A DNA stretch of 64,000 bases from Escherichia coli. GTDB lineage: Bacteria > Pseudomonadota > Gammaproteobacteria > Enterobacterales > Enterobacteriaceae. Below the pieces are notes generated by a model. The model saw nothing but the letters and a program-made list of their open reading frames with translations. It did not search any database and had not been told where the DNA came from. Shown piece by piece: positions 34,016 to 54,516 of the stretch. The stretch's first letter is position 1; each line of letters opens with the position of its first letter. The position numbers and the translations under genes are program-made. The stretch is taken from NCBI RefSeq assembly GCF_002854065.1, contig NZ_CP024147.1. The stretch is one strand, 5' to 3'.

Positions 34016-34092
34016 GAGATATCCTCCAGTTTCCTGCCTGGAGTATAGGCAACGTCCGGCAAAGAGAATACGTGTAATGAAGAGAAAATAAC

Positions 34093-35091: not shown

Positions 35092-35157
35092 AACTTCTCC
35101 CAACGTCGGGGGAATCTTCAATCTTCCCCCGAAACTACATCACAATATTTTATTCTT

Positions 35158-36477: not shown

Positions 36478-36541
36478 AGTCTTTATCTCTTATTAGTGCC
36501 AGAAAAGCAGCGCTTTCGCGCTGCACGTAGGGTAGTAGGTG

Positions 36542-37306: not shown

Positions 37307-37329
37307 TGTATTATTCCTTTATTTATCTC

Positions 37330-38361: not shown

Positions 38362-38577
38362 AAATTCCTCACTGGTCAGGTAGACACCTCGGAAGCATTT
38401 AAGCGGTTTTAATTGTTATTATTTGTGATGAAGATCACGTCAGAAAATTGTTACATTACTATGTTACGCATAACGTGATGTGCCTTGTAATTCTTATCAG
38501 CAGAAATAAAAAAACGTGAAATTATTATGCCACCAGGCGTAGTATCGCAGCAGGTAAGATGATTCAGGAGATTTTAA

Positions 38578-39141: not shown

Positions 39142-39144
39142 TTT

Positions 39145-40164
39145 TCAAAAATCGGCTTTCAACACCACGCGGTAACGCGCCTTACCGTCGCGCACATGCT
39201 GGATGGCGTCGTTAATTTTCGACATCGGGAACAATTCGGTAGTCGGCGCAACCTTGCTGCGGGCGGCAAAACGCATCAGCTTACGCAACTCATAAGGCGT
39301 GCCAGTAGCAGAGCCAGAGACACTGCGATCGCCCGCAATTAACGTAAAGGCCGGAACAGACAGCGGCGTGAGAACCGCACCGACCGTATGGAAATTACCG
39401 CCATACGTCAGCGCCTCAAAATAAGGCTGCCAGTCGAGGCTGACGTTCACAGTATTGATAATGAGATCAAACTGCCCCGCCAGAGTTTTCAGTGCCTGCG
39501 GATCGCGGCTATTCACCACTTTATCGGCACCCATCGCCAGTACTTCCTGCTCTTTCGCCGGATTTGAACTAAAGGCTGTCACCTCGCATCCCATTGCGTG
39601 CAGAAGTTTTATAGCGATATGCCCCAGCCCGCCAATACCAATTACCCCAACGCGGCTGGTAGCAGTGATATGGTGCATCAATAGTGGTTTAAAGACCGTG
39701 ATACCGCCGCACAACAGCGGCCCGGCGGACTCGATATCAATATTTTCTGGCAGTGGAATCACCCATTGCCAGTCCGCACGCAACTTCTCGGCAAAGCCAC
39801 CGCGATTCATAATCGTCGGCACCGCACCTTGCTCGCAGTTGATCTGATTACCGCTAATACAGGCGTCGCAGTGACCACAGCTACGCGCCGTCCAGCCAAT
39901 CCCGACACGCTGACCGACCTGCAAACCTTTATCCTGCGCGGCGCTCCCGAGTGCCACCACGCGCCCAATCACCTCATGCCCGGCAACCAGCGGATACTGT
40001 GAAAATCCCCATTCGTTATCGATCATCGACAGATCGGAATGGCAGATCCCGCAGTAATCCACCTGCACTTCAATATCTTGTGGCTTCAGCTCACCGGGAT
40101 CGTACTCATAAACTTCCAGTTCGCCGCCCGCTTCTTTTGCGGCATAGCTTTTTATCATCGACAT
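39145..40164 (-). CDS. ahr: NADPH-dependent aldehyde reductase Ahr (YjgB), Zn-dependent MDR
   Basis: MDR motifs GHEVIG and CGHCDAC; start placed at [11 protein letters not shown]. Confidence 0.85.
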
Positions 40165-40359: not shown

Positions 40360-40444
40360 GCCGAAGTGGCGAAATCGGTAGACGCAGTTGATTCAAAATC
40401 AACCGTAGAAATACGTGCCGGTTCGAGTCCGGCCTTCGGCACCA
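40360..40444 (+). tRNA. leuX: tRNA-Leu (anticodon CAA)
   Basis: GCCGAAGTGGCGAAATCGGTAGACGCAGTTGATTCAAAATCAACCGTAGAAATACGTGCCGGTTCGAGTCCGGCCTTCGGCACCA: cloverleaf with long variable arm, anticodon loop tTCAAaa, 3' CCA. Confidence 0.95.
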
Positions 40445-40457
40445 TCGGAACATTAAT

Positions 40458-40481
40458 AGACGTCAACGGACGTCTTTTTTT
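40458..40481 (+). terminator. Intrinsic terminator after leuX
   Basis: AGACGTCAACGGACGTCT hairpin followed by T7. Confidence 0.8.
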
Positions 40482-40642
40482 GTGCCTGAAATCCAGTATC
40501 CGCAAGGCTTTCCTCGCTTTTTCACTCAACCTAAGTCAACCTGATTCAATTTACATCAACTTACTGATGCGGGTACAACTGCGGGTATATCGCGGTTCGA
40601 TAATGTTTGTACCCACACAGAACCCTTGAAAGGATACTCATC

Positions 40643-41899
40643 ATGGCTCTGAGTGATGTGAAGGTTCGTTCGGCTAAGCCTGAAGCAAAAGCCTATAAAC
40701 TTACTGATGGTGACGGTTTGGTTTTGCTGGTTCACCCGAATGGCTCAAAATACTGGCGGCTGCGTTATCGTTTTGGCGGTAAGGAGAAGATGCTGGCGCT
40801 TGGGAAATACCCTGAAGTGTCGCTGGCGGATGCCCGGGCACGCCGGGATGAAGCTCGTAAGCTGTTAGCTAATGGCGTCGATCCCAGTGAGAACAAGAAA
40901 GCCGTTAAGGTAGAGCAGGAGCAAGAGGCGATAACGTTTGAATTGGTTGCCAGAGACTGGCACGCCAGCAATCAGAAGTGGTCTGCATCGCATAGAGCTC
41001 GAGTATTGAAAAGCCTCGAAGATAATCTCTTTGCTGCTATCGGTAAGCGGAACATTGCAGAACTGAAAACGCGAGACCTACTTGTACCCATCAAAGCGGT
41101 GGAATCATCCGGGCGACTCGAAGTCGCCGCCCGTTTACAGCAGCGAACTACTGCGATTATGCGCTTTGCCGTTCAGAGCGGCTTAATCGACTATAACCCC
41201 GCACAAGAGATTGCCGGTGCGGTAGCTACGGCGAAAAGACAACATCGTGCTGCTCTGGAACTTAATCGCATTCCTGAATTACTTCACCGCATTGATCACT
41301 ATTCTGGCAGGCCGTTAACTCGACTGGCGGTTGAACTCACTTTGTTGGTTTTCATCCGTTCAAGCGAGCTGCGTTTTGCTCGCTGGTCAGAAGTGGATTT
41401 TGATACTGCCATGTGGACGATTCCAGGGGAGCGTGAACCGCTGGAAGGCGTTAAACATTCTCAGCGTGGTTCAAAGATGCGGACTCCCCATCTTGTTCCT
41501 TTGTCGCGGCAGGCTCTGGCTATTTTGGAAAAGATCAAAAGCATGAATGGGAGCCGTGACCTGATCTTCGTAGGAGATCACGATCCGCGTAAGCCAATGA
41601 GTGAGAATACGCTTAATAAGGCCTTGCGAGTAATGGGCTATGACACGAAAACGGAAGTGTGTGGGCATGGTTTCAGGACGATGGCGTGTAGCTCATTGAT
41701 TGAATCGGGTTTGTGGTCGAGAGATGCGGTGGAAAGGCAGATGAGCCATCAAGAGCGTAGCTCTGTGCGTGCGGCGTATATTCATAAGGCGGAACATTTG
41801 GGAGAACGCAGGTTGATGCTGCAGTGGTGGGCTGATTTTCTTGATGCAAATCGTGAGAAGGCGATGAGTCCATTTGATTTTGCCAAACTTAGGCGGTGA
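40643..41899 (+). CDS. intB: P4-type (IntB-like) tyrosine integrase at the leuX island border
   Basis: About 418-aa ORF with N-terminal DUF4102-like region (KAYKLTDGDGLVLLVHPNGSKYWRLRYRFGGKEK) and C-terminal HGFR/Tyr recombinase motifs; immediately 3' of a tRNA gene. Confidence 0.88.
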   Translation: MALSDVKVRSAKPEAKAYKLTDGDGLVLLVHPNGSKYWRLRYRFGGKEKMLALGKYPEVSLADARARRDEARKLLANGVDPSENKKAVKVEQEQEAITFELVARDWHASNQKWSASHRARVLKSLEDNLFAAIGKRNIAELKTRDLLVPIKAVESSGRLEVAARLQQRTTAIMRFAVQSGLIDYNPAQEIAGAVATAKRQHRAALELNRIPELLHRIDHYSGRPLTRLAVELTLLVFIRSSELRFARWSEVDFDTAMWTIPGEREPLEGVKHSQRGSKMRTPHLVPLSRQALAILEKIKSMNGSRDLIFVGDHDPRKPMSENTLNKALRVMGYDTKTEVCGHGFRTMACSSLIESGLWSRDAVERQMSHQERSSVRAAYIHKAEHLGERRLMLQWWADFLDANREKAMSPFDFAKLRR

Positions 41900-42229: not shown

Positions 42230-45200
42230 ATGGATGCTTTAAGGGCTACAACATCGACAAATTTCAGTTTTCTCGCTGAACATGACCCGCTGTTTCTACA
42301 AATCGCCACTGCTGCAGAAAACGCCTTCTCAGGCGATCCCAACACCACCTTGATTAAGTTGCGCCAACTAGGTGAAGCCTTAGCACAACATATTGCTGCG
42401 CTGGTCGGGATCACGTTTGATGAACCGCCCACTCAGGCTGATTTACTCTACCGCCTCAATCGCGAGCTAAAATTTGAACCCACGGTACTCGAGCTATTTC
42501 ATCTATTGCGGATAGAGGGCAACAAGGCCACTCACCAGTTCAAAACCAAGCACAAAGAGGCGCTAGATGGCTTAAAAGTGGCGCGAGCGCTAGCTATCTG
42601 GTTCCACCAATCTTTCGGCAAGCAGGGCGCGGCCTTTAAACCCGGCGCTTTTATTGCTCCTCCAGACCCGAGCAATCAGCTTAGGCAACTCCAAACGGAA
42701 ATCGATCGCCTCAAAAGTGAGCTCACTACCGCCAACATACAGCTAGATTCCAGCCAACAGCTGCAAAATTTGCTGGTGCAGGAAAAGAGTGAATATGAAG
42801 CGCTGGCGTTAGCCATGGATGATGAAACTAAGGTGTTAGCATCGCAGGCGAAAGAGCAGGAAATTGCACTCGAACAGCTTCGACAGCAATACGAAGAAAA
42901 ATTAAAAATCCTGCAAGCGCAACTGACCGAAAAAGATGAAAAGCAGGCCCGAACACAACGGCGAGAGTTTGCCCAGAAGAGCCGCCGTGCCAGCCAACAT
43001 ATCGCGTTAAATGAAGAACTCACCCGTATATTGATTGACCAAAACTTAAATGATGCGGGCTGGCTTGCTGACAGTCAGGAACTGACCTGGGCTAACGGAA
43101 CTCGCCCTGAAAAGGGGATAAACAAAGCCATTGCCGAATGGCCTACGGAGTATCAGGGTAAAAAAGGTCGCGCTGATTACGTTCTATTTTGCGGCTTAAC
43201 TCCGCTGGCCACGGTCGAAGCCAAAAAAGAAAACACCGATGTTGCGGGAAAAATTCCGCAGGCAGAACGCTACAGCAAAGGCTTCAAAATCACGTCCCCC
43301 ATGATTGGCGCATGGGAGCGGGAAGGCCGAACCATTGCATGGGCGGATGAGACTGACGGGCATTATATTATCCCGTTTGTATACTCCTGCAACGGTCGCC
43401 CCTACGTGCCACAGTTGGCTGAGTCATCAGGAACTTGGTTCCGGGACGTGCGCGAACCGTCCAACATCCGCCGTGCGCTGCAAAAGTTTCATACCCCGCA
43501 AGGCTTGCTGGATAAACTCGAACGCAGCAAAGACAGCGCCGAACAGAAGCTAAAGCAAGAAGGCTTCGCTTACCTCCGGTTACGCGATTATCAGCAAAAG
43601 GCCATTCTCGCCGTTGAAAGCACATTGGCGCAAAACATCCGCAATGCCCTTCTGGCGATGGCGACCGGCACCGGGAAAACACGCACCATTGTTGGTCTAA
43701 TGTACCGTTTTCTGAAAACTGAACGCTTCAAGCGCATCCTCTTTCTGGTTGACCGTACGGCTTTGGGCGAGCAAGCCACGGACACCTTCAAAGAAGCGCC
43801 GTTGGAGCAAAACCAGACGCTGTCTCAGATTTACAATATCGCTGAGCTCGGCGATATGGCTACACAGGCAGAAACCCGAGTACAGGTCGCGACGGTACAG
43901 GCCATGGTTAGCCGCATTTTTTCCTCGGACACACCACCGCCGGTGGATGAATTTGACTGCATCATCGTTGATGAAGCCCACCGAGGCTACACCTTAGATC
44001 AGGAAATGACTGAAGGGGAACTCTCGACCCGCGACGCCAGCCAATATCTCTCCAGCTACCGTCGGGTGCTCGATTATTTCGACGCGGTAAAAATCGGCCT
44101 TACCGCCACTCCGGCGAAACATACCAGCGATATCTTCGGCAAACCGATTTACATCTACTCCTACCGTGAAGCCGTGGCGGATGATTGGCTTATCGATCAT
44201 GAACCTCCAATCCGTTATGAAACGCTGCTGACGCAAAATGGCATCCACTTTGACAAAGGGAGCCAGGTGCATGCCATTAATATCCACACCGGAGAGGTTG
44301 AGATTGATCAGCTAGAAGACGAAGTGGATTTCAACGTTGATGCATTTAACCGTGGCGTCATCAGTGAAAACTTTAATCGGGTTATTTGCCAACAGCTCGT
44401 GAAAGAGCTCGATCCCTTTGGCGAAGAGAAAACGCTGGTTTTCTGCGTTACAGACAAACATGCCGACATGGTCAAACGCTTGCTGGATGAAGCGTTCTCT
44501 GCTGAATATGAAAACTATAATCAAGCGGCCGTCGAGAAAATCACCGGTGAAAGTGACAAAGTCAAACAGTTGATCAAACAGTATAAAAATGAACGCTATC
44601 CGAATATTGCAATCACCGTTGATTTGCTTAGCACCGGCATTGACGTGCCGAAGATTTGTAATCTGGTTTTCATGCGTCGGGTGAAGTCACGTATTTTATT
44701 TGAACAGATGATAGGCCGCGCAACACGCCGCTGTGATGACATTGGCAAAACGGTCTTCCGTATTTACGATCCAGTAGATATTTATGAGGCTCTCAGTGAC
44801 GTTAACACCATGAAACCGCTGGTCAAAGACCCCAATATCACACTTGAACAATTGGTCGGCGAGCTAACCGATACTGAACAGCTCGAAAAAGCGCTCAACA
44901 GCCCCGGTGAACATACAGGTGAAACTCAGGCTGATGTGGTGCTCAGCCAGTTAAGCCAAAAGGTGATGCGCATCCTACGTAAGGCGGAGAAACGGGCAGA
45001 AAATCGCCCAGTGGTGAAACAAAAATTGGCTGACCTCCATCAACTGTGGGGCGTTGAGCCAAAACAGCTGCATCAACATCTGCATCACTTAGGGCCGCGT
45101 CAGGCGGCAGCCTTCATCCAACAACAGCAAGGGCTAATCTGCCAGCTCAACGAGATAGCTACATTACTCGGAAGTGAATACCGGCCGATTATTTCTGAGC

Positions 45201-45754
45201 ATCATGACCAACTACAGGAACGTAACCAGAGCTACGGTAGCCATCAGCGGCCAGAAGATTACCTGGAAAGCTTTGCGGATTTTATTCAGCAGCAGCTTAA
45301 CCAATCCACTGCGCTGGCCGTGGTTGTCAACAAACCCCGCGACCTCACTCGTGAACAGCTTAAAGAGATCCGCTTATTATTAGACGGTGCGGGCTATTCC
45401 GAAGCTAATCTACAAACCGCCGTGCGTAATCAAACCAATCAGGATATCGCCGCCAGCATTGTCGGCCACATTCGCCGTGCTGCACTAGGGGAGCCTCTTG
45501 TGCCTTTTGCACAGCGCGTATCACAGGCAATGATCAACATTTATAACAGCCGCGCATGGACAACCCAGCAACGAAAATGGCTGGATCGTCTGGCAAAACA
45601 GCTGGTTCATGAAGTGATCATTGATCACCAATTTATTAACAATAGTTTTGCTGATGATGGCGGCGTAAAACAGCTCAATAAGATATTGGTAGACCAACTG
45701 GACAGCGTGCTGGATGAACTTAACGGTGCGATATGGCCACAACAAAGCGCCTGA
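42230..45754 (+). CDS. hsdR: Type I restriction enzyme R subunit (nuclease/helicase)
   Basis: 1174-aa ORF; PD-(D/E)xK-type motif (RADYVLF...VEAKK), SF2 helicase motif I (AMATGTGKT) and motif II (IIVDEAHRG); N-terminal coiled-coil segment. Confidence 0.9.
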   Translation: MDALRATTSTNFSFLAEHDPLFLQIATAAENAFSGDPNTTLIKLRQLGEALAQHIAALVGITFDEPPTQADLLYRLNRELKFEPTVLELFHLLRIEGNKATHQFKTKHKEALDGLKVARALAIWFHQSFGKQGAAFKPGAFIAPPDPSNQLRQLQTEIDRLKSELTTANIQLDSSQQLQNLLVQEKSEYEALALAMDDETKVLASQAKEQEIALEQLRQQYEEKLKILQAQLTEKDEKQARTQRREFAQKSRRASQHIALNEELTRILIDQNLNDAGWLADSQELTWANGTRPEKGINKAIAEWPTEYQGKKGRADYVLFCGLTPLATVEAKKENTDVAGKIPQAERYSKGFKITSPMIGAWEREGRTIAWADETDGHYIIPFVYSCNGRPYVPQLAESSGTWFRDVREPSNIRRALQKFHTPQGLLDKLERSKDSAEQKLKQEGFAYLRLRDYQQKAILAVESTLAQNIRNALLAMATGTGKTRTIVGLMYRFLKTERFKRILFLVDRTALGEQATDTFKEAPLEQNQTLSQIYNIAELGDMATQAETRVQVATVQAMVSRIFSSDTPPPVDEFDCIIVDEAHRGYTLDQEMTEGELSTRDASQYLSSYRRVLDYFDAVKIGLTATPAKHTSDIFGKPIYIYSYREAVADDWLIDHEPPIRYETLLTQNGIHFDKGSQVHAINIHTGEVEIDQLEDEVDFNVDAFNRGVISENFNRVICQQLVKELDPFGEEKTLVFCVTDKHADMVKRLLDEAFSAEYENYNQAAVEKITGESDKVKQLIKQYKNERYPNIAITVDLLSTGIDVPKICNLVFMRRVKSRILFEQMIGRATRRCDDIGKTVFRIYDPVDIYEALSDVNTMKPLVKDPNITLEQLVGELTDTEQLEKALNSPGEHTGETQADVVLSQLSQKVMRILRKAEKRAENRPVVKQKLADLHQLWGVEPKQLHQHLHHLGPRQAAAFIQQQQGLICQLNEIATLLGSEYRPIISEHHDQLQERNQSYGSHQRPEDYLESFADFIQQQLNQSTALAVVVNKPRDLTREQLKEIRLLLDGAGYSEANLQTAVRNQTNQDIAASIVGHIRRAALGEPLVPFAQRVSQAMINIYNSRAWTTQQRKWLDRLAKQLVHEVIIDHQFINNSFADDGGVKQLNKILVDQLDSVLDELNGAIWPQQSA

Positions 45755-45833: not shown

Positions 45834-47402
45834 ATGAGTAATAATAACGATATCGTACAAAAACTGTGGAACCTGTGTGATGTACTGCGTGATGACGGCA
45901 TCAACTACAGCGATTACGTCACCGAACTAGTGCTACTACTGTTTATCAAAATGGTGCATGAAAATACCGAAGCAGAATTATTAGATCAGCACACTTTACC
46001 GCAGGGCTGCCGCTGGAGCGATCTCAACAGTTTATCGGGCCTCAACTTGCTTAACCATTACAAACAAATGCTGTTGAAGCTCTCCAGCGGCAAAGACGCT
46101 GAAGGTAATTCGGTTCATGCTGACCCGCTGATTAGCGCCATTTATGACGATGCGCAGACCCGCCTGCGTGAGCCTCGTCATCTCGAACAGATGATCCGCA
46201 CCCTCGACCAAATTGACTGGTTTAGTGCTAAAAAAGACGGTCTCGGTGATCTTTATGAAGGTCTGCTGGAGAAAAACGCCGGAGAAACAAAATCTGGCGC
46301 AGGTCAATATTTTACGCCGCGGGCCTTAATTAACAGCATGGTACGCTGCATTAAGCCACAGGCTGGAGAAGTGATCCAAGATCCCGCTGCGGGCACCGCA
46401 GGGTTTTTGATTGCCGCCGATCAATACATCAAGCAACAAACTGACAACCTCTACGACCTTACTGCCAAAGCGAGAACCTTTCAAAAAAATAAAGCCTTTA
46501 TTGGTGTGGAACTGGTTCCGTCTACGCGCCGCCTGGCACTGATGAACTGCCTGCTACACGGCATCGAAGGGGATGACGAAGGCGTCGTGCATCAGGGCAA
46601 CGCGTTGGGCATGGTGGGTGCTAGCTTGCCCAAGGCCGATATCATTCTTGCTAACCCGCCGTTCGGTACGGCGAAAGGCGGTGAAGCCAGCATTACTCGT
46701 GATGACTTAACCTACCCAACTAGTAACAAACAGCTAGCGTTTTTACAGCATATCTACCGTAACTTAAAACCGGGTGGCCGTGCAGCTGTGGTGCTACCCG
46801 ACAACGTCCTGTTTGAAGCGGGTGTTGGCACCGATGTACGCCGCGACCTTATGAACAAATGTAACCTGCACACCATTTTACGTTTACCCACCGGGATTTT
46901 TTACGCCCAAGGGGTGAAAACCAACGTTTTGTTCTTCACCAAAGGCAGCGCCAACAACAAACATCAGGATGAAAATTGTACCGAAAACGTCTGGATCTAT
47001 GATCTGCGTAGTAACATGCCAAGCTTTGGCAAACGCACCCCGTTTGGTGAGCAACATTTAAAACCCTTTGAAGCGGTTTACGGCGACGATGCCAACGGTC
47101 AAAGCCCACGCAGTGAAGGGGAATGGAGTTTTAACTCCGACAAACTTGACGTGCCCGATAACGCCGAAAATCAGCACGTTGACAACCGCATGGCGACCAG
47201 CCGTTGGCGCACATTCAGCCGTGAATGGATCCGCGATGTTAAAGGTGATTCATTAGATATTGCATGGCTGAAAGATAACAACAGCGTTGATGTGACTAAC
47301 CTGCCTGAACCTAGTGTATTAGCGATTGAAGCAAAAGAAGAATTAACCACTGCTTTAGCAGAACTGGATGCTTTATTGACTTTATTAGGAGCAACTCGCT
47401 GA
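45834..47402 (+). CDS. hsdM: Type I restriction-modification N6-adenine DNA methyltransferase subunit
   Basis: N-terminal HsdM_N-like sequence (DIVQKLWNLCDVLRDDG), motif I DPAAGTAGFL, catalytic NPPF; start at the ATG with AGGA RBS. Confidence 0.9.
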   Translation: MSNNNDIVQKLWNLCDVLRDDGINYSDYVTELVLLLFIKMVHENTEAELLDQHTLPQGCRWSDLNSLSGLNLLNHYKQMLLKLSSGKDAEGNSVHADPLISAIYDDAQTRLREPRHLEQMIRTLDQIDWFSAKKDGLGDLYEGLLEKNAGETKSGAGQYFTPRALINSMVRCIKPQAGEVIQDPAAGTAGFLIAADQYIKQQTDNLYDLTAKARTFQKNKAFIGVELVPSTRRLALMNCLLHGIEGDDEGVVHQGNALGMVGASLPKADIILANPPFGTAKGGEASITRDDLTYPTSNKQLAFLQHIYRNLKPGGRAAVVLPDNVLFEAGVGTDVRRDLMNKCNLHTILRLPTGIFYAQGVKTNVLFFTKGSANNKHQDENCTENVWIYDLRSNMPSFGKRTPFGEQHLKPFEAVYGDDANGQSPRSEGEWSFNSDKLDVPDNAENQHVDNRMATSRWRTFSREWIRDVKGDSLDIAWLKDNNSVDVTNLPEPSVLAIEAKEELTTALAELDALLTLLGATR

Positions 47403-48778
47403 TGAGTAAGATTATTCTACCTGAAGGGTGGTCCAATTGTACTCTTGCAGATATTGCTGAAGTTAACCCTAAAAAAATAGAGGCTGAACCTGACATAATT
47501 GCAGGCTTTGTTCCTATGTCTCATGCCCCAACAAACTATTACGGGAAATTAGAGTTTGAAGAAAAGACTTGGGGTGAAATTGGTAAATCTTACACTAACT
47601 TTAAAAATGATGATGTGATTTTTGCAAAAGTAACGCCTTGTTTTGAAAATGGTAAAGCAGCAATTGTAAAAGATATGCCAAATAATATCGGTGCAGGCAG
47701 CTCTGAATTTTATGTTCTACGCGCTCGTAATCAAGAGATACCAGCCAGTTATTTACTTGGGATTATTAAGACCAGAAAATTTATGCAGGAAGGTGCAGAA
47801 AATATGACAGGTGCTGTTGGTCTGCGCCGTGTTCCAAGGGCTTTCGTTGAAAGCTTTCCTTTGATACTTCCCCCTCTTGCAGAACATAAAATCATCGCCG
47901 ATAAACTCGATATTCTGTTAGCACAGGTCGAAAGCGCCAAAGCACGCCTTGAGCAAATACCACAAATCCTGAAGCGTTTTCGTCAAGCGGTGTTGGCATC
48001 TGCGGTGAGTGGAAAATTAATACCAAAGGATCAAAAGTCCAATGTACGATTTGATGTCTCAGTTGGTTCACTTTGTATAACTTCGTTTGATGGCCCTTTT
48101 GGGTCAAAATTAAAAACGGCTGATTATACAAATGCGGGTGTTCGTGTCGCTCGACTAGAAAATATTGGTCATTTAACATTTAATGATGAAAAAGAAACGT
48201 ATATCAGCGATACAAAATTTAATAGCCTAAAAGGAAATAAGCTCGAAAAGGATGATGTGTTATTCTCATCATTTGTAGATGAAGATGTTCGTGTATGTCT
48301 TTTTCCACATAACGATAAAATTTTTATAAACAAGGCAGATTGTTTTTGTTTAAGGATCAATCAAGAAATAGCATCACCAAAATATGTAGCTTTAACATTA
48401 GCAAGCAGAACTTCGTATGAACAAATTAAAGCACAGGTTCAAGGTGTAACACGACCTCGTATTAATTTAAAGACGTTAAGGTCTTTGTCGTTTACGTTTC
48501 CTTCTCTACAAGAACAAAACGAAATTGTTCGCCGCGTAGAACAACTCTTCGCCTATGCTGATGGCATCGAAAAGCAGGTACACAACGCCCTTGAGTGCGT
48601 CAACAACCTCACACAGTCGATTCTGGCTAAAGCATTTCGTGGGGAACTCACGGCGCAATGGCGTGCAGAAAATCCCGATTTAATTAGTGGTGAAAATAGC
48701 GCACAAGCATTACTGGTGAAAATTCAACAGCAGCGCAAAAACATAAAAAATATCAAACGCAACAAGGGTAATAATTGA
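47402..48778 (+). CDS. hsdS: Type I restriction-modification specificity subunit
   Basis: 458-aa ORF, start overlaps the hsdM stop (TGATG); two target-recognition-domain halves separated by conserved helical spacers. Confidence 0.85.
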   Translation: MSKIILPEGWSNCTLADIAEVNPKKIEAEPDIIAGFVPMSHAPTNYYGKLEFEEKTWGEIGKSYTNFKNDDVIFAKVTPCFENGKAAIVKDMPNNIGAGSSEFYVLRARNQEIPASYLLGIIKTRKFMQEGAENMTGAVGLRRVPRAFVESFPLILPPLAEHKIIADKLDILLAQVESAKARLEQIPQILKRFRQAVLASAVSGKLIPKDQKSNVRFDVSVGSLCITSFDGPFGSKLKTADYTNAGVRVARLENIGHLTFNDEKETYISDTKFNSLKGNKLEKDDVLFSSFVDEDVRVCLFPHNDKIFINKADCFCLRINQEIASPKYVALTLASRTSYEQIKAQVQGVTRPRINLKTLRSLSFTFPSLQEQNEIVRRVEQLFAYADGIEKQVHNALECVNNLTQSILAKAFRGELTAQWRAENPDLISGENSAQALLVKIQQQRKNIKNIKRNKGNN

Positions 48779-50481
48779 TGCGACTGATTTCTTTAGATTT
48801 GAGAGGCAGCTACAAAGGCTTGAAAGATCAATTCTTTGACTTCAGTTATGCCCAAGATAATATAATTGCATTGATTGGCCTTAATGGTTCTGGTAAATCT
48901 CAATTGCTTGAGTTAATCGGAGAAACTTTTGCTTATCTAGAGCGATGGCAACGTGCAGAGTTCAAAAATAAAACATCGTTAGGTTTTAGCGTCGCGGTAC
49001 ACTATCAATGGGATCTTAGAAATGATAGTGCTGTTATATCTTACCCAGACGAGCTCATGAATCATGGTGAGAGCATTGAGCTAAAGGTAACTATTGAGCT
49101 TGACGGCGATGTGTTTTTAAATGTTCGTGGTACTTATGAGTGGCATGTAATACAGCTTGGTGAGCGCCATTTCCCCATCCCTCTCGTGGTTGGTTATGCT
49201 TCGGGGCTAAACGAAAATTTACAGCGAAGTTTTATGAAAAATGCTGTGCAATATTTTGAAGTCCGTCGAATTAGTAGCCAGCGTCTAAAAATGCTATCAC
49301 GAGAAATTAATGATGAACAGTTGGCTGAAATCAATAAGAAGTATCTTAAAAAATACCCACACATATTTGATCCTTTATCAGAAGGTGATTTTTTTCCAAA
49401 TTATCACCTGAATTTGAGAGAAGTGAATCCTGCCCCTAGCAATTTTAACTATCTTGATTACGATAATATTGGGCTCTTAATTTTATCGCTATCGATTCTT
49501 CCGGCTGGGACAGTATTTCAACTATTAGATGAAATAACATATAAACATCCTGTCAAAGCTGTACTTCATTACGACTTTCGTTCTGGCATCATAGAAGATG
49601 ATGCCATTCGTGATGTGAAAATGTTGATCCGTATAGCAGGCTCCGATCAAGTAAGGCCAACAGGAGGCCGAACTACAGATAACCAGTATGAACTTTATGA
49701 GTTAGAATATCTGTCTGGAGAAATCACTCTCGAATTAAGTGATGAGGCTGTTTTAAACCGACTTCGTGAAGATAACTACTTTGATTCTTTCGCATTATTT
49801 AAAAGACTTAATAATATTCAACAGCTTGGCATAAAGAACTGGGATCGTACATCTCGTTTGAAATTGATGAAAGATGATTTTATAGGTACGGTAAAAAAAC
49901 CGCTTCAGTCAAGGTTACCTTTATCTGTTGTTGAGTTATTAATGGCTAATGAACAGGGCGATACCGTGAAGTTTGATGATTTATCTGACGGTGAAGCTCA
50001 ATTGATTCAGGTTGTTGCCGCAACAAGGATATTCAGTCAGGTTCAAGCGCTATTTCTTTTTGATGAGCCAGAAACACACCTTAATCCGTCTTGGCGTACC
50101 TATTTTCATCAGCGTTTAACTGAAGCATTTACACCTGGAAATGAGAGGAAAGGTCAATCGCAATTCTTTCTATCTACTCACTCACCATTCATGATTTCCT
50201 CGCTCAAACGCGAGAATGTATTTTTCTTCGAGCGTAGTGATATGGGTTGTATCAGTATGGAACCGGTGTCCAGCCAGACTTATGGCACATCATTTGATGT
50301 CTTGGTTAAGAACCACTACGGTCTGCGTTCCCTTATTTCACAGACAGTGGTGAAGGATGTTAAAAATCGATTACCAGAAGATAATAATCCTGAAGCAGTT
50401 ATAGCTGCGCGACTCTGGATTGAGGAAAATCTGGGAGAATCAATGGAAAAGGCTTATCTGCTAAGGAAACTAGATAGCTAA
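48778..50481 (+). CDS. ABC/SMC-like P-loop ATPase (AAA_15/AAA_21-like), candidate defence ATPase (Septu PtuA-like)
   Basis: Walker A GLNGSGKS near the N-terminus; signature-like LSDGEAQL, Walker B LFLFDEPETHLNP and H-loop STHSP near the C-terminus; start overlaps the hsdS stop. Confidence 0.7.
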   Translation: MRLISLDLRGSYKGLKDQFFDFSYAQDNIIALIGLNGSGKSQLLELIGETFAYLERWQRAEFKNKTSLGFSVAVHYQWDLRNDSAVISYPDELMNHGESIELKVTIELDGDVFLNVRGTYEWHVIQLGERHFPIPLVVGYASGLNENLQRSFMKNAVQYFEVRRISSQRLKMLSREINDEQLAEINKKYLKKYPHIFDPLSEGDFFPNYHLNLREVNPAPSNFNYLDYDNIGLLILSLSILPAGTVFQLLDEITYKHPVKAVLHYDFRSGIIEDDAIRDVKMLIRIAGSDQVRPTGGRTTDNQYELYELEYLSGEITLELSDEAVLNRLREDNYFDSFALFKRLNNIQQLGIKNWDRTSRLKLMKDDFIGTVKKPLQSRLPLSVVELLMANEQGDTVKFDDLSDGEAQLIQVVAATRIFSQVQALFLFDEPETHLNPSWRTYFHQRLTEAFTPGNERKGQSQFFLSTHSPFMISSLKRENVFFFERSDMGCISMEPVSSQTYGTSFDVLVKNHYGLRSLISQTVVKDVKNRLPEDNNPEAVIAARLWIEENLGESMEKAYLLRKLDS

Positions 50482-51647
50482 TGTTATTTTCACTTAATCC
50501 ACAGACGCCTCAATGTTCGGTATTTGCATTTCTTAATGCTGAATTTCTTCATTTTTTGCAAGCTACTATTAATGCTGATGTATTCTCAGAAAACTTATTC
50601 CGCACTTTTCCTGAGATGATTGAAGATACAGAAGTACTTGTCCCTAGTGTATGTTGGAGTAATGAGCCCACAAGAGAGAAATTTCTTGGGTTATGGGAAG
50701 CGCGGCCTACGACCGTTGCGCAGCGACGGGAGTTGTCAGACCAAATAAGTCAGGCTCAGGATATTAATGTATTTTTCAACAATACCCAAGCTGTATTGCC
50801 GCAATTAGTACCAGCCTCTTTATTCGAAGCATGTAAGGCGTTAACAACTCATTTGTTTACACGTACCAAAGATCTAGCTCAAGCAAAGTCACAATCCAAT
50901 AGTTCTATTGAAAAACATTATCAGAATTTCGTCAGAGAAAATAATAATAGCCATCTATGTCCTATTTGTGGCACTGCACTTCTCTCTCAAAATCGAGAAA
51001 GCGTAGCAGAGGAAGAACAATGGCGATCAGATTATGACCACATTCTTTGCAAAGATAAATATCCAGTTTACAGTGTCCATCCAGGAAACTTCATTCCGAC
51101 TTGCCATATTTGTAATAGTAAAGCTAAAGGGGCAAGGGACTTACTGAATACTGTTGGTCTCCAGAGACGATTAGCATTTTATCCACTTCCCCCATCACAA
51201 GAGTCATGTGAGCAATTTGTTGTGGTATCGCTTCACCTCAGTGACCGTAGAGATTTAATTGTGAATAGTTGGGAAACACCGTTGGAGTCAGCATCCATTT
51301 TATTCCCCAGAGCTCCAGCTGACATAGTAGATAAAATAGGTGTATGGAAAGAAGTTTATAAAGTACCAGAAAGAGTTGAACAGCATCTTAAGGTCAACTT
51401 TTGCGAGCGTATAGCCGCTGATCTACGACCAGTAAGCTTTGATGATTTCTGTGAGCAATTACATAGATATTCGAGACAAATGCCAGCAGACTATAGAAAA
51501 TCGGAATGGAGGTTTTGGTGGCAGAAAGTCTATGAATTCTTATCAGATCAAAATAGAGACTATTTACACGATGTGTGGATATTAATTGCCTGGAAATTAA
51601 GGTTATCAAATGATGCTGATATGGCTGATACGTTTAATCAAATTTAA
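50481..51647 (+). CDS. HNH-endonuclease-domain protein, partner of the upstream ATPase (Septu PtuB-like)
   Basis: Central motif CPICG...DYDHILCKDKYP...NFIPTCHICNSKAKG (CxxC...DH...N...CxxCN); start overlaps the ATPase stop (TAATG). Confidence 0.65.
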   Translation: MLFSLNPQTPQCSVFAFLNAEFLHFLQATINADVFSENLFRTFPEMIEDTEVLVPSVCWSNEPTREKFLGLWEARPTTVAQRRELSDQISQAQDINVFFNNTQAVLPQLVPASLFEACKALTTHLFTRTKDLAQAKSQSNSSIEKHYQNFVRENNNSHLCPICGTALLSQNRESVAEEEQWRSDYDHILCKDKYPVYSVHPGNFIPTCHICNSKAKGARDLLNTVGLQRRLAFYPLPPSQESCEQFVVVSLHLSDRRDLIVNSWETPLESASILFPRAPADIVDKIGVWKEVYKVPERVEQHLKVNFCERIAADLRPVSFDDFCEQLHRYSRQMPADYRKSEWRFWWQKVYEFLSDQNRDYLHDVWILIAWKLRLSNDADMADTFNQI

Positions 51648-51661
51648 ATTTTACTTCAACA

Positions 51662-51691
51662 GGGTGAGAGTATTGTTACTCTCCCTTTTTA
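51662..51691. terminator. Hairpin plus T-run between convergent HNH gene and nuclease-motif gene
   Basis: GGGTGAGAGTAttgtTACTCTCCC followed by TTTTT; overlaps the last codons of the minus-strand gene. Confidence 0.5.
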
Positions 51692-52848
51692 AAATACATT
51701 GTAGAAGGTGCGCTTATTACTACGCAACCATCAATGCCTTTTATCTTCAATACCCCTTCCTTGAATTTAACATGTTCTTGTGTTGCTCGAGTGCAGTCCC
51801 ACAGGAAGCTGATGATATACGAATCCTTATATTTTTCGTCGACACGATAAAGTGACGCATCTTCTGCAATTTCTCCTATTAGTGCAGGAAACGATTTTTT
51901 TGTATCTTTTCGGTATTTTACTTCAATAATTGTGTGCAGTGATGGCAGATAAAGGTCTATGCGGGGGTTTTTTTGTCCGACAGGCTGAAGATTCACCTCA
52001 TCTGCAATATCGTTGAATATTGGCGCAAGTAGGATATAAAGCAGATTCTGAACATGATATTCATTTTCAACTTGCCACTTTACGGGCTCTGCGCCTCTGG
52101 TTCGACCTGAGTCCTCCCATGTCCATCGTTTTAACCCTGCAGGGATATGTTCCAGAAATCCTAGCAGGTCATCCAGTGTCCATCCAGACGGTGGAGCAAT
52201 GGCAATTTCCTGATTAATTTGATTAAAAACGTAAAGCATTACACACAAGAGAGTAACTGAAGGATTTTCTGTAGCTTGTGCTTGAAATTCGCTCATGAAA
52301 CGTCCGACAAGAGAAAGTCGGTTCTGATGACTATTGATCTTCAATAACTTTCGATAATGAAGGAAGAGTGGTATGCAGGCACTACTAAAGGAGGCTGATT
52401 CGCTGTTACCGACATATGCCGCGATATCTTTCTCGAAGATACTTAGATGGTTGCTTTCAATTTGCTGAGCCAGAAACCCTGAAATCCACTTTTCGAACTC
52501 GTGATTTATGCTCTCATCTTGCATCTGTGCCGTTAGCCATTTCACTGCCATTACACCGAACATATCCGATACCCAAGGTCTCGGTGTTGAATCAATCTTG
52601 GGAGCTTGTCCGAGCAGGCGAGAGACATCCTGGACCGAGACAGTTTCATCTAGAATACCTAAACCTGAAATTGCACAGCGTTGGTATAAAGATAGGTCCG
52701 CAAAGCTAAAATTCGTAATGCAGCTTTTATCTCCTTCCAGGAGACTAAAAAAGCAGGACTTAAATGGATCAATGTGAGCGGATTCGATCACCTTACTGTG
52801 AAAATAGTCGCGTAGCTGATAAACGTTTTCTTTCTCTATAGGAACCAT
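51676..52848 (-). CDS. Predicted PD-(D/E)xK-motif nuclease, candidate effector partner of the upstream Argonaute
   Basis: 390-aa ORF; C-terminal motif ...RIDLYLPSLHTIIEVKY (D-x(n)-E-x-K) preceded by a helix with conserved Glu; start overlaps the pAgo stop by 13 nt. Confidence 0.55.
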   Translation of the reverse strand: MVPIEKENVYQLRDYFHSKVIESAHIDPFKSCFFSLLEGDKSCITNFSFADLSLYQRCAISGLGILDETVSVQDVSRLLGQAPKIDSTPRPWVSDMFGVMAVKWLTAQMQDESINHEFEKWISGFLAQQIESNHLSIFEKDIAAYVGNSESASFSSACIPLFLHYRKLLKINSHQNRLSLVGRFMSEFQAQATENPSVTLLCVMLYVFNQINQEIAIAPPSGWTLDDLLGFLEHIPAGLKRWTWEDSGRTRGAEPVKWQVENEYHVQNLLYILLAPIFNDIADEVNLQPVGQKNPRIDLYLPSLHTIIEVKYRKDTKKSFPALIGEIAEDASLYRVDEKYKDSYIISFLWDCTRATQEHVKFKEGVLKIKGIDGCVVISAPSTMYFKKGE

Positions 52849-53175
52849 TGTGAATGCCCTATTTTTCCAATCATGACTGAGTCACTCCAGCCCGGAAGCT
52901 GATTCAACCATCCTAAATTATGGGCGATAAGATCGGAATAAGTGATGGTAACTGGCATGGGATTGGGGAAGTAACTACGCCAGGAGTGTGATGCGAAACT
53001 GTAGAGCTGAGCACTCAAATACTTAATATCTTTGAAGGTCGAGTCTTTATGAACGTTGACGATCACACCACGTGGATGACCGTCCGTTTCTTGTCGTAAT
53101 TCACGTTGGCCGATCAGGTAAACAAGCATTTCGTTTTTAGAAAGCTTAAACGTATTTCCGCGATGTGTCGCCAGG

Positions 53176-53180
53176 CGTCC
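53176..53180. repeat. IS2 target-site duplication, left copy (CGTCC)
   Basis: Identical 5 bp directly flanking both IS2 ends. Confidence 0.85.
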
Positions 53181-53271
53181 TAGACTGGCCCCCTGAATCT
53201 CCAGACAACCAATATCACTTAAATAAGTGATAGTCTTAATACTAGTTTTTAGACTAGTCATTGGAGAACAG

Positions 53272-53637
53272 ATGATTGATGTCTTAGGGCCGGAGAAACG
53301 CAGACGGCGTACCACACAGGAAAAGATCGCAATTGTTCAGCAGAGCTTTGAACCGGGGATGACGGTCTCCCTCGTTGCCCGGCAACATGGTGTAGCAGCC
53401 AGCCAGTTATTTCTCTGGCGTAAGCAATACCAGGAAGGAAGTCTTACTGCTGTCGCCGCCGGAGAACAGGTTGTTCCTGCCTCTGAACTTGCTGCCGCCA
53501 TGAAGCAGATTAAAGAACTCCAGCGCCTGCTCGGCAAGAAAACGATGGAAAATGAACTCCTCAAAGAAGCCGTTGAATATGGACGGGCAAAAAAGTGGAT
53601 AGCGCACGCGCCCTTATTGCCCGGGGATGGGGAGTAA
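53272..53637 (+). CDS. insC: IS2 OrfA (InsC, HTH protein)
   Basis: 121-aa sequence [26 protein letters not shown]... recognised as IS2 InsC. Confidence 0.9.
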
Positions 53638-54500
53638 GCTTAGTCAGCCGTTGTCTCCGGGTGTCGCGTGCGCAGTTGCACGTCATTCTCAGACGAACCG
53701 ATGACTGGATGGATGGCCGCCGCAGTCGTCACACTGATGATACGGATGTGCTTCTCCGTATACACCATGTTATCGGAGAGCTGCCCACGTATGGTTATCG
53801 TCGGGTATGGGCGCTGCTTCGCAGACAGGCAGAACTTGATGGTATGCCTGCGATCAATGCCAAACGTGTTTACCGGATCATGCGCCAGAATGCGCTGTTG
53901 CTTGAGCGAAAACCTGCTGTACCGCCATCGAAACGGGCACATACAGGCAGAGTGGCCGTGAAAGAAAGCAATCAGCGATGGTGCTCTGACGGGTTCGAGT
54001 TCTGCTGTGATAACGGAGAGAGACTGCGTGTCACGTTCGCGCTGGACTGCTGTGATCGTGAGGCACTGCACTGGGCGGTCACTACCGGCGGCTTCAACAG
54101 TGAAACAGTACAGGACGTCATGCTGGGAGCGGTGGAACGCCGCTTCGGCAACGATCTTCCGTCGTCTCCAGTGGAGTGGCTGACGGATAATGGTTCATGC
54201 TACCGGGCTAATGAAACACGCCAGTTCGCCCGGATGTTGGGACTTGAACCGAAGAACACGGCGGTGCGGAGTCCGGAGAGTAACGGAATAGCAGAGAGCT
54301 TCGTGAAAACGATAAAGCGTGACTACATCAGTATCATGCCCAAACCAGACGGGTTAACGGCAGCAAAGAACCTTGCAGAGGCGTTCGAGCATTATAACGA
54401 ATGGCATCCGCATAGTGCGCTGGGTTATCGCTCGCCACGGGAATATCTGCGGCAGCGGGCTTGTAATGGGTTAAGTGATAACAGATGTCTGGAAATATAG
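53595..54500 (+). CDS. insD: IS2 OrfB (InsD, DDE transposase; expressed as an OrfAB fusion by -1 frameshift)
   Basis: 301-aa ORF overlapping insC in the -1 frame; DDE integrase-core-like sequence. Confidence 0.9.
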
Positions 54501-54511
54501 GGGCAAATCCA

Positions 54512-54516
54512 CGTCC
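54512..54516. repeat. IS2 target-site duplication, right copy (CGTCC)
   Basis: Identical 5 bp directly flanking both IS2 ends. Confidence 0.85.

What the first reader, a model, noticed from the sequence alone, without database searches (positions are those of the whole stretch)
48778..51647. ABC-like ATPase plus HNH nuclease pair appended to the type I R-M operon (Septu-like candidate defence module)
Two overlapping ORFs follow hsdS. The first (567 aa) has Walker A GLNGSGKS at the N-terminus and signature-like LSDGE, Walker B LFLFDEPETH and an H-loop at the C-terminus, an ABC/SMC-type fold. The second (388 aa) has a central HNH motif (CPICG...DYDHIL...NFIPTCHICN). ATPase-plus-HNH pairs are the defining architecture of Septu (PtuA/PtuB), but the HNH partner here is longer than I recall for PtuB, with about 160 unassigned residues on each side, so it may be a divergent or distinct family.
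Basis: partly seen in the sequence, partly recalled or inferred. Interest (0 to 1): 0.8.

Follow-up and report, generated by a model that had tools for sequence, protein, structure and literature searches.

The report
Restriction-operon-linked Septu-like ATPase–HNH nuclease pair
Two genes at the end of a type I restriction-modification operon encode a Septu-like ATPase and HNH nuclease that always travel with the restriction genes and are sometimes fused to one of them, so they look like an untested built-in second nuclease arm of the restriction system.

Summary
ORF A (48778-50481, 567 aa) is an ABC-type ATPase with all its motifs. ORF B (50481-51647, 388 aa) carries an invariant Zn-finger HNH/HNN motif. 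Both follow hsdS with 1-nt overlaps.

It is not a casual appendage. All 20 β/γ-proteobacterial loci with enough flank have hsdM-hsdS-A-B in this order, and 19 also have the same EcoKI-like hsdR. All eight distant B relatives examined, including Bacillota, Cyanobacteria and Chloroflexota plasmids, follow an hsdS or HsdS domain plus an ATPase. Most of those ATPases are bona fide TIGR04435 "restriction system-associated AAA family ATPase". At least 15 protein clusters are HsdS–ATPase fusions.

My best reading is a PtuAB-class effector docked on the HsdS/methylase core. It would act as a guardian or backup nuclease. This is inferred, and nothing has been tested experimentally.

It is a new variant of a known kind, of moderate to high interest.

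The parts
42230..45754 (+). hsdR, type I restriction subunit (1174 aa), EcoKI-like
   Evidence: NF008521 scores 1615.7 bits against a cut-off of 729. It is 40% identical and colinear with EcoKI HsdR, and the PD-(D/E)xK motif ADYVLF…VEAKK is intact.
45834..47402 (+). hsdM, type I methyltransferase (522 aa; RefSeq start)
   Evidence: PADLOC MTase_I 2.3e-223. It is 59% identical to EcoKI HsdM. The start is taken from the identical RefSeq locus.
47402..48778 (+). hsdS, specificity subunit (458 aa); its stop overlaps the start of A by 1 nt
   Evidence: PADLOC Specificity_I 1.9e-151. The junction sequence is TGATG.
48778..50481 (+). Gene A: PtuA-like / TIGR04435-related ABC ATPase (567 aa)
   Evidence: PADLOC PtuA PDLC00293 5e-44 and TIGR04435 170 bits, below the 300 cut-off. 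The AF2 model has pLDDT 84.7, and the top 25 Foldseek PDB hits are all PtuA chains, best 8eea_D at 2e-12.
48877..48900 (+). Walker A GLNGSGKS (A res 34-41)
   Evidence: Translation. G34, N36, G37, G39, K40 and S41 are invariant in 21 homologues.
49981..50187 (+). ABC signature LSDGE (402-406), Walker B LFLFDEPETH (425-434) and H-loop LSTHSP (465-470)
   Evidence: Translation. S403, D404, G405, D429, E430, H434 and H468 are invariant.
50293..50478 (+). C-terminal helical extension of A (res ~506-566), the candidate B-binding element by analogy with the PtuA C-terminal extension
   Evidence: The AF2 model has helices at 506-513, 522-531, 538-551 and 556-566. G553, S555, E557 and L561 are nearly invariant. 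The PtuA C-terminal extension binds the PtuB C-terminal domain (PMC12819146). The assignment here is an inference.
50481..51647 (+). Gene B: 388-aa HNH nuclease with a PtuB-like core
50481..50945 (+). N-terminal domain of B (res 1-~155), helical with a β-hairpin. No counterpart was identified in the ~224-aa PtuB. It is conserved across the wider family.
50958..51128 (+). ββα-Me (HNH/HNN) nuclease motif with a CCCC zinc site (B res 160-216)
   Evidence: C160, C163, Y185, D186, H187, N203, C208, C211, N212, S213 and K214 are invariant in 29 sequences. The PADLOC and PHROG HNH-type hits cover res 138-226.
51666..51683 (.). Hairpin between the convergent B and REase genes; terminator-like and possibly bidirectional
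   Evidence: The consensus scan finds GAGAGTATTGTTACTCTC followed by a T-run (sequence). This is a pattern match only.
40360..41899 (+). tRNA-Leu(CAA) (40360-40444) and a tyrosine integrase (40607-41899): the left boundary of the island that carries the cassette
   Evidence: ARAGORN, integrase NF007246 1e-77 and the RefSeq annotation of the identical locus.

Best explanation
A and B form a Septu-class (PtuA/PtuB-type) ATPase–HNH nuclease complex. It is an integral accessory of this EcoKI-like type I R-M system, not an independent neighbour.

Shown:
- hsdM, hsdS, A and B lie on one strand, and the hsdM/hsdS, hsdS/A and A/B junctions each overlap by 1 nt.
- The order hsdS→A→B is kept from Enterobacteria to Burkholderiales, and in distant relatives from three other phyla.
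- In at least 15 protein clusters HsdS and the ATPase are one polypeptide.
- ATPase and nuclease catalytic residues are invariant, and both genes are under purifying selection.

Inferred:
- An A dimer or oligomer docks on HsdS, that is on the M2S1 methylase/recognition core.
- A holds B through its C-terminal helical extension, as PtuA holds PtuB.
- B is latent until the R-M core is perturbed, most plausibly by anti-restriction DNA mimics such as Ocr or ArdA, which bind exactly that core. Engagement of unmodified target DNA is an alternative trigger.
- ATP-dependent rearrangement then frees or activates the HNH nuclease. It cuts nucleic acid (DNA nicking or a tRNA, as reported for PtuAB) and gives a second-line, probably abortive, defence.

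In this reading HsdS/M2S1 plays the role that the RT–msDNA plays for retron-bound PtuAB.

The confidence of 0.55 is for physical and functional coupling to the R-M core. The specific 'guardian of restriction' trigger I put at about 0.35-0.4.
For: Homology and fold:
- The A profile against PDB puts PtuA first (1.4e-17, 7e-14), then AriA (6e-11).
- The top 25 Foldseek hits for A are PtuA chains.

Linkage:
- There are 23 loci in a scan of 100,044 species' genomes. All 20 with enough flank have hsdM-hsdS-A-B, 19 of them with the same hsdR family, down to 29-31% B identity.
- A/B overlap by 1 nt in 17 of 22 loci, and hsdS/A overlap by 1 or 4 nt in 15 of 21.
- Divergence of B tracks that of hsdR (Spearman 0.93, n=19).
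- Additional Serratia, E. coli and Acinetobacter contexts are the same.
- All eight distant B relatives examined follow an hsdS or HsdS domain plus an ATPase.
- Five of those ATPases score 344-799 bits on TIGR04435 (cut-off 300).

Rosetta-stone fusions:
- L039 and L034 encode HsdS(8-424)+ATPase(477-947) and are only 36% identical to each other.
- At least 15 distinct fused clusters of 984-1180 aa exist.

Other support:
- In L005 another candidate system (PDC-M04AB) is embedded between hsdS and A, as happens inside multi-gene systems.
- dN/dS is 0.12-0.16 for A and 0.10-0.13 for B.

Precedents from the literature:
- PrrC and PARIS are described as R-M guardians (PMC12707154).
- PtuAB is sequestered by a partner and released on perturbation, and the PtuB C-terminal domain binds the PtuA C-terminal extension (PMC12819146).
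Against: - There is no experimental datum for any member, and no paper on this family was found.
- The window's own HsdS and A are separate proteins. Their contact is inferred from fusions in distant lineages.
- Other type I-embedded systems act on their own. The tgvAB genes protect when expressed without the type I genes (PMC11411939). DarTG2 is an independently characterised toxin-antitoxin defence that is also embedded in a type I system (PMC12255303).
- The cassette is mosaic. Among enterobacterial copies dS rises from 0.13-0.15 (hsdR) to 0.99-1.31 (B) and GC drops from ~0.49-0.52 to ~0.38-0.40. The 3' part is therefore exchanged between cassettes and not strictly co-inherited.
- In L005, L009 and L010 there are 0.8-1.5 kb between hsdS and A, so tight translational coupling is not obligatory.
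- The trigger and the substrate are pure analogy.
Confidence: 0.55

Rival explanations
1. Alternative restriction arm. HsdS/M2S1 directs the A–B complex to unmethylated target sites, and the HNH nuclease cuts foreign DNA directly. This would be an 'ABC-ATPase-anchored R-M-like system' working in parallel with, or instead of, HsdR. It would give restriction that survives inhibitors or loss of HsdR.
For: - The HsdS–ATPase fusions put the ATPase on the DNA-recognition subunit.
- Two loci show hsdM-hsdS-A-B with no hsdR nearby: Rheinheimera L011 within ±10 kb and the Priestia plasmid within the 40.6 kb of annotated sequence examined (record 21393-62000).
- OLD/ABC-ATPase + HNH dyads linked to R-M and BREX are described as auxiliary effectors in comparative genomics (PMC12839542).
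- PtuAB nicks plasmid DNA in vitro (PMC12819146).
Against: - In the window's clade hsdR is present in 19 of 20 loci with an intact nuclease motif, so a second DNA nuclease is not needed to complete the system.
- 'No hsdR' in the two loci rests on limited flanks and on an incomplete plasmid gene table.
- Characterised PtuAB acts through host-directed toxicity or tRNA-Tyr cleavage (PMC12673091 and PMC13096335 abstracts), not through site-specific restriction.
Confidence: 0.25
2. Independent Septu-like abortive-infection system that merely shares the transcript of the R-M operon. This would be defence-island economy or co-regulation, with its own unrelated phage trigger and no physical contact with Hsd proteins.
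For: - Defence genes embedded in type I R-M, BREX and Hma loci are co-oriented in 96.7% of cases and often work alone (Payne et al., bioRxiv 10.1101/2024.01.29.577857; TgvAB).
- The mosaic dS pattern shows the A–B segment recombines as a unit.
- A and B have everything a PtuAB pair needs.
Against: - Canonical Septu is overwhelmingly stand-alone; for example, only 0.7% is embedded in Hma. This family was next to hsdS in every informative locus: 20 of 20 close and 8 of 8 distant.
- Repeated HsdS–ATPase gene fusions are hard to explain without a shared complex.
- NCBI curators named the sister family by this association (TIGR04435).
Confidence: 0.15
3. Post-segregational or addiction module. A–B kills cells that lose or silence the R-M operon, or controls restriction alleviation. 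It would stabilise the island and not fight phage.
For: - The latent-nuclease-plus-ATPase architecture resembles AbiEii/AAA_21-type toxin annotations (Pfam AAA_21).
- The pair sits on an integrase-bearing island at tRNA-Leu.
Against: - No antitoxin-like partner was found.
- The family is chromosomal and plasmid-borne in many phyla, always with hsdS specifically.
- Nothing links it to maintenance.
Confidence: 0.05

Closest known systems
Septu (PtuA/PtuB) and the PtuAB effector of type I-A retrons (Ec78/Eco7, Ec83)
   Different: - Sequence similarity is marginal. NF041760 PtuA scores 44 bits against a cut-off of 500, NCBIfam returned no family for B at E ≤ 0.01, and PADLOC PtuB hits at 1e-7 over only 82 residues.
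- B is 388 aa against ~210-235 aa, with an extra conserved ~150-aa N-terminal domain.
- The pair is never seen stand-alone here; it always follows hsdS, and A is sometimes fused to HsdS.
- There is no retron RT or ncRNA.
NCBIfam TIGR04435 'restriction system-associated AAA family ATPase' (hypothetical equivalog, function unknown)
   Same: The length (568-position model against 567 aa) and the C-terminal half are colinear, at E 7e-50. True members (344-799 bits) sit after hsdS and are followed by homologues of B. The architecture is the same.
   Different: The window protein scores 170 bits, below the 300-bit cut-off, so it is a divergent sister clade that PGAP labels only 'AAA family ATPase'. 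The family's partner protein has no model or name, and no published function was found.
PADLOC phage-defence candidates PDC-M62 and PDC-M01 (ATPase + HNH-like pairs found embedded in BREX/DISARM/type I R-M)
   Same: They are the same kind of dyad and were found in the same kind of genomic setting. B's best PADLOC hits are PDC-M62B (3e-12) and PDC-M01B (1e-9), and A hits PDC-M62A (6e-16). PDC-M62B models are of similar length (328-401).
   Different: The hits are weak and cover only the HNH core of B (res 138-224). A matches a PtuA submodel far better. These PDCs were defined computationally, and I found no test of PDC-M01 or PDC-M62 in the passages of the preprint I read.
PrrC/EcoprrI and PARIS (AriA/AriB): 'R-M guardian' systems
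   Same: This is a functional analogy. An ABC-type ATPase is coupled to a latent nuclease, is genetically (PrrC) or functionally (PARIS) tied to type I restriction, and is activated when restriction is inhibited (PMC12707154). A hits AriA models (1.3e-20; PDB AriA 6e-11).
   Different: PrrC is one polypeptide with an anticodon-nuclease domain and sits between hsdS and hsdR of a type IC system. AriB is a Toprim nuclease. B is an HNH protein unrelated to either. No trigger is known here.

Membership tests
Septu (PtuA/PtuB) | PtuA: ABC/SMC-type ATPase of the PtuA family | tested here: inconclusive
   Fold and profile say PtuA-like: PADLOC PDLC00293 5e-44, PDB profile 1.4e-17, and the top 25 Foldseek hits are PtuA chains. 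The curated equivalog NF041760 gives only 44 bits against a cut-off of 500, and TM-scores are 0.33-0.49.
Septu (PtuA/PtuB) | PtuB: ~210-235-aa HNH nuclease (TIGR02646-type) | tested here: not met
Septu (PtuA/PtuB) | Self-contained two-gene system, normally stand-alone | tested here: not met
   The pair follows hsdS in 20 of 20 close and 8 of 8 distant informative loci, and there are HsdS–ATPase fusions.
Septu (PtuA/PtuB) | PtuA oligomer binding PtuB; ATP-regulated nuclease; anti-phage activity | not testable with these tools
   This needs biochemistry and phage assays. No complex prediction tool was available.
TIGR04435 restriction system-associated AAA family ATPase | Whole-protein score ≥ 300 bits | tested here: not met
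   170.3 bits, E 7e-50, in 2 stretches, the best covering 305-565 of the protein. True members scored 344-799 bits in the same test.
TIGR04435 restriction system-associated AAA family ATPase | Encoded next to restriction-system genes | tested here: met
   It lies directly after hsdS with a 1-nt overlap, and this is conserved in all related loci.
PADLOC PDC-M62 / PDC-M01 candidates | Both proteins match the A and B models over most of their length | tested here: not met
   A hits PDC-M62A at 6e-16, with the best stretch at res 395-509. B hits PDC-M62B at 3e-12 and PDC-M01B at 1e-9, over res 137-224 only.
PARIS (AriA/AriB) | AriA ATPase paired with the Toprim nuclease AriB | tested here: not met
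   AriA models hit A (1.3e-20), but the partner is an HNH protein. No Toprim or AriB hit appeared among B's 25 best PADLOC matches, out of 37 in all.
PrrC anticodon nuclease | Single polypeptide with an ABC-ATPase domain and a C-terminal anticodon nuclease, embedded in a type IC hsd locus | tested here: not met
   There are two separate proteins, an HNH nuclease and a type IA-like R-M system. No PrrC model appeared among the PADLOC hits listed (best 25 per protein).
MADS (methylation-associated defence system) | MAD3 ATPase equivalog (NF047739, cut-off 420) with the other mad genes | tested here: not met
   NF047739 gives 20.7 bits, and PADLOC mad3 gives 8.9e-15 only. HsdM and HsdS hit MAD2 and MAD5 far below their cut-offs.
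Type I R-M, EcoKI-like (type IA-related) | HsdR, HsdM and HsdS all present, with HsdR helicase and nuclease motifs intact | tested here: met
   NF008521 scores 1615.7 bits (cut-off 729). PADLOC gives REase_I 2e-269, MTase_I 2e-223 and Specificity_I 2e-151. HsdR and HsdM are 40% and 59% identical to EcoKI, and the D…EAK motif is kept.

The most novel reading that the evidence does not exclude
The ATPase–HNH pair is a Septu-class sensor-effector physically mounted on HsdS. It monitors the type I methylase/recognition core and fires when that core is blocked by phage anti-restriction DNA mimics such as Ocr or ArdA. This would be a third, mechanistically distinct 'restriction guardian' after PrrC and PARIS, and it would be widespread across bacterial phyla. 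In HsdR-less loci the same M2S1–A–B assembly would act as a new kind of sequence-directed restriction enzyme that uses an SMC-like ATPase and an HNH nuclease.
Probability: 0.35. Interest if true: 0.8.

Novelty: new variant of a known kind. Interest (0 to 1): 0.6.

Why it matters
Type I R-M systems are the classic target of phage anti-restriction proteins. Only two backup solutions, PrrC and PARIS, are understood.

This is a native E. coli example of a family that has about 2,000 50%-identity clusters at E ≤ 1e-3 in the profile search and occurs in at least five phyla. In it a PtuAB-type ATPase–nuclease is hard-wired to HsdS and is even fused to it.

If the coupling is real, it shows a third way that the Septu effector platform has been co-opted, after stand-alone Septu and retrons. 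It also gives a directly testable model for how restriction complexes are guarded or extended.

It would in addition give a name and a function to the partner of TIGR04435, which is annotated only as 'hypothetical protein', and to a conserved ~150-residue domain for which no sequence-family match was found.

Tried and rejected
- Pfam on B gave nothing (best hit Fe_hyd_SSU, E 0.23), and NCBIfam on B and on three B homologues gave nothing.
- The B-family profile against PDB sequences found no PtuB hit even at E ≤ 1.
- I tested whether HNH replaces a dead HsdR nuclease. I rejected this because the PD-(D/E)xK motif is intact.
- I tested whether the pair is common in E. coli. Only 1 of 5,426 complete genomes has it, and the same single genome has this hsdR.
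- I tested for a phage-borne origin. There was no tblastn hit in 50,697 phage genomes.
- In plasmids there were only three distant hits, which turned out to be informative contexts.
- Literature searches for TIGR04435, 'restriction system-associated AAA', PDC-M62, and PtuA/PtuB together with hsd genes found no study of this family. Two of the searches were spoiled by prefix matches ('rloA', 'septu' matching 'septum').
- Krishnan et al. 2020 (the ABC ATPase classification, probably the most relevant comparative paper) is not held.
- I did not run the metagenome-contig scan or viral-contig scans. The contexts already gathered were consistent.

Full report
**1. Observation**

The two ORFs exist exactly as described. 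A lies at 48778-50481 (567 aa) and B at 50481-51647 (388 aa), both on the + strand directly after hsdS (47402-48778).

- In A: Walker A GLNGSGKS, LSDGE, LFLFDEPETH and LSTHSP.
- In B: CPIC…YDH…N…CHICN.

The hsdS/A and A/B junctions read TGATG and TAATG, which are 1-nt overlaps typical of translational coupling. A terminator-like hairpin lies in the 28-nt gap between B and the convergent downstream gene. The scan found no more promoter-like or terminator-like sites in the region than shuffled sequence gives.

Profile searches confirm A:
- PADLOC PtuA submodel PDLC00293, 5e-44
- NCBIfam TIGR04435 'restriction system-associated AAA family ATPase', 7e-50
- Pfam AAA_21 and AAA_15

B is invisible to Pfam and NCBIfam. 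Its central 85 residues do hit PADLOC PDC-M62B (3e-12), PDC-M01B (1e-9) and PtuB (1e-7), and a PHROG HNH family (4e-6).

**2. Setting**

The window matches one E. coli complete genome out of 5,426 (NZ_CP178662.1, chicken, South Africa). The pair is 100% identical there and is annotated 'AAA family ATPase' and 'hypothetical protein'.

The cassette lies on an island that begins at tRNA-Leu(CAA) with a tyrosine integrase. The gene order is hsdR, hsdM, hsdS, A, B. A PD-(D/E)XK 'Aga helical-REase' gene and a pAgo gene then converge from the other strand.

HsdR and HsdM are 40% and 59% identical to EcoKI and colinear with it. The HsdR nuclease motif is intact. This is a complete type IA-like system, and the HNH protein is not compensating for a dead HsdR.

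**3. What the proteins are**

*Protein A.* An alignment of 21 A homologues keeps every ATPase motif invariant. Its profile finds PtuA chains first in the PDB (retron I-A PtuA 1.4e-17, Septu PtuA 7e-14), then AriA (6e-11). The AF2 model of A has pLDDT 84.7. Its top 25 Foldseek hits are all PtuA chains, followed by SMC heads and AriA.

*Protein B.* B's family is compact, at about 125 clusters at 90% identity. All are 360-390 aa, all are 'hypothetical', and they come from γ- and β-proteobacteria. The following residues are invariant:
- CxxC…YDH…N…CxxCNSK
- several N-terminal residues (N61, T64, L121, L125, T129)
- several C-terminal residues (R229, R230, W289, R298, W346)

B is therefore a PtuB-like HNH protein carrying roughly 195 extra residues. 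From the lengths and the position of the HNH motif (res 160-216 in B, about 34-110 in PtuB models), I infer two things. The conserved ~150-residue N-terminal domain is the main addition. [quoted passage not shown] A has such a conserved helical C-terminus.

**4. Linkage to the R-M system**

*Close relatives.* A scan of one genome for each of 100,044 species found 23 loci. tblastn with the window's proteins showed hsdM-hsdS-A-B colinear on one strand in all 20 loci with enough flank. Nineteen of them also have the same ~1,170-aa hsdR family. This holds down to 29-31% B identity in Burkholderiales, Zoogloea and Propionivibrio. The other three loci:
- two are cut by contig ends;
- one is a deletion remnant.

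A/B overlap by 1 nt in 17 of 22 loci, and hsdS/A overlap by 1 or 4 nt in 15 of 21. B's divergence tracks hsdR's (Spearman 0.93). Serratia, a second E. coli lineage and Acinetobacter show the same order.

*Distant relatives.* A profile search of 1.84 billion representatives shows a much larger superfamily of ~350-380-aa proteins. These share the N-terminal domain and HNH core: 1,982 representatives at E ≤ 1e-3 and 581 at E ≤ 1e-10. I examined eight distant members with usable context:
- five metagenomic loci;
- plasmids of Priestia (Bacillota), Kovacikia (Cyanobacteria) and Herpetosiphon (Chloroflexota).

All eight follow an hsdS or HsdS domain plus an ATPase. Five of those ATPases are bona fide TIGR04435 members at 344-799 bits, whereas the window's A scores 170 bits and is a divergent sister.

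*Fusions.* In L039 and L034 HsdS and the ATPase are a single ~980-aa polypeptide. The two are only 36% identical to each other. A homologue search finds at least 15 distinct fused clusters of 984-1180 aa, down to 24% identity. One of them, from Pyrinomonadaceae, carries the TIGR04435 name. Recurrent, old gene fusions of this kind are classical evidence that the two proteins act in one complex.

*Nuances.*
- Other candidate systems can be inserted inside the cassette: PDC-M04AB between hsdS and A in L005, SoFic between hsdR and hsdM in L006, and PDC-S26 in L035.
- Two loci (Rheinheimera L011 and the Priestia plasmid) have hsdM-hsdS-A-B but no hsdR in the flanks examined.
- Among enterobacterial copies synonymous divergence climbs along the cassette: hsdR 0.13-0.15, hsdM 0.17-0.35, A 0.27-0.61, B 0.99-1.31. 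GC drops from ~0.49-0.52 to ~0.38-0.40 at hsdS.

The cassette is therefore mosaic, and its 3' part is exchanged among cassettes of the same architecture. dN/dS of 0.10-0.16 shows that A and B are under purifying selection.

**5. Mechanism**

Shown:
- homology to PtuA and PtuB;
- intact catalytic motifs;
- co-transcription geometry;
- obligate adjacency to hsdS;
- HsdS–ATPase fusions.

Inferred: A docks on HsdS/M2S1 and holds B in a latent state, and a change at the R-M core activates the nuclease.

I favour a guardian or backup role, for four reasons:
- PtuAB is a platform that is sequestered by a partner and released on perturbation in retrons.
- The related ATPase AriA senses Ocr.
- PrrC is a latent nuclease masked by a type I enzyme.
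- Ocr and ArdA bind precisely the M2S1 core (established knowledge of those proteins).

The main rival is that M2S1 targets A–B to unmodified DNA as an additional or alternative restriction nuclease. The HsdR-less loci and the 'ABC-ATPase-anchored R-M-like systems' mentioned in PMC12839542 favour that reading.

A third possibility is an independent Septu-like system sharing a transcript, as tgvAB does when expressed without the type I genes; DarTG2 is a second defence system embedded in a type I system. The fusions and the invariable adjacency argue against it.

**6. Comparison and novelty**

It works like Septu/PtuAB but fails membership on three counts: the curated PtuA score, the size and architecture of PtuB, and stand-alone organisation. 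It is a sub-threshold relative of TIGR04435, whose name records the association but whose function is unknown. It is only weakly related to the computationally defined PADLOC candidates PDC-M62 and PDC-M01.

I found no experimental work on this family in the held literature.

Verdict: a real feature and a new variant of a known kind, namely an R-M-integrated Septu-class ATPase–HNH module with an enlarged nuclease subunit. It is ordinary in its parts and interesting in its wiring. Interest is 0.6.

Noticed in passing
window 53181-54512: An IS2 copy splits the pAgo gene in the window (InsC-like ORF 53227-53637; TnpB 53595-54500, NF006918 727 bits). The gene is intact (743 aa) in E. coli NZ_CP178662.1, so the Argonaute system next to the cassette is probably inactivated here.
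   Followed up: partly
window 51676-56403 (- strand): A pAgo gene plus a PD-(D/E)XK 'Aga helical-REase' gene (PADLOC 3.7e-132; Pfam DpnII-MboI in homologues) converge on gene B. The same pAgo pair sits downstream of the cassette in Serratia and a second E. coli lineage, and the REase gene does in Phytobacter. The two systems therefore travel together in Enterobacteria.
   Followed up: partly
window 34054-39145: A ~5.1-kb stretch between yjgR and ahr is absent from the otherwise 95-99.7% identical E. coli VTB96935v chromosome. It contains ORFs at 37330-38361 (-) and 38578-39141 (+) and has low GC (~0.40-0.45). I did not examine it.
   Followed up: no
window 47000-52000: GC falls from ~0.49-0.52 in hsdR/hsdM to 0.37-0.40 across hsdS, A and B. 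Among enterobacterial copies dS rises about 8-fold from hsdR to B. The cassette is a recombination mosaic whose 3' half is swapped between cassettes.
   Followed up: yes
L039 410-3364; L034 3-2948: These are natural HsdS–ATPase fusion proteins (~980-1180 aa; at least 15 clusters in the protein database) followed by a B homologue. In L039 hsdM lies downstream of B, a different gene order.
   Followed up: yes
L005 6766-7964; L006 4323-5393; L035 3135-4361: Other defence candidates are embedded inside related cassettes: PDC-M04A/B between hsdS and A (1.8e-100 and 5.4e-74), SoFic between hsdR and hsdM (1.2e-118), and PDC-S26 (PDDEXK_4) between hsdR and hsdM (1.2e-131).
   Followed up: partly
L041 10062-11141; L038 5197-7068: Some distant cassettes carry extra genes. 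L041 has a 359-aa ORF overlapping the stop of the B homologue, with no PADLOC or Pfam hit. The Herpetosiphon plasmid has a second MTase-like gene (623 aa) between hsdS and the ATPase.
   Followed up: no
L023 8882-10507; L024 10001-10733; L027 5650-10780: Several cassettes are decayed or rearranged. In Methyloversatilis hsdM abuts a B fragment, so S, A and half of B are deleted. In Ahniella B matches in two pieces and may be frameshifted. In an A. baumannii chromosome two integrase genes lie directly upstream of hsdS-A-B where hsdR and hsdM would be expected.
   Followed up: no
L011 623-3691: In Rheinheimera sp. UJ63 a 1022-aa ORF with no PADLOC hit lies upstream, where hsdR would be expected. 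No hsdR was found within ±10 kb of hsdM-hsdS-A-B.
   Followed up: partly
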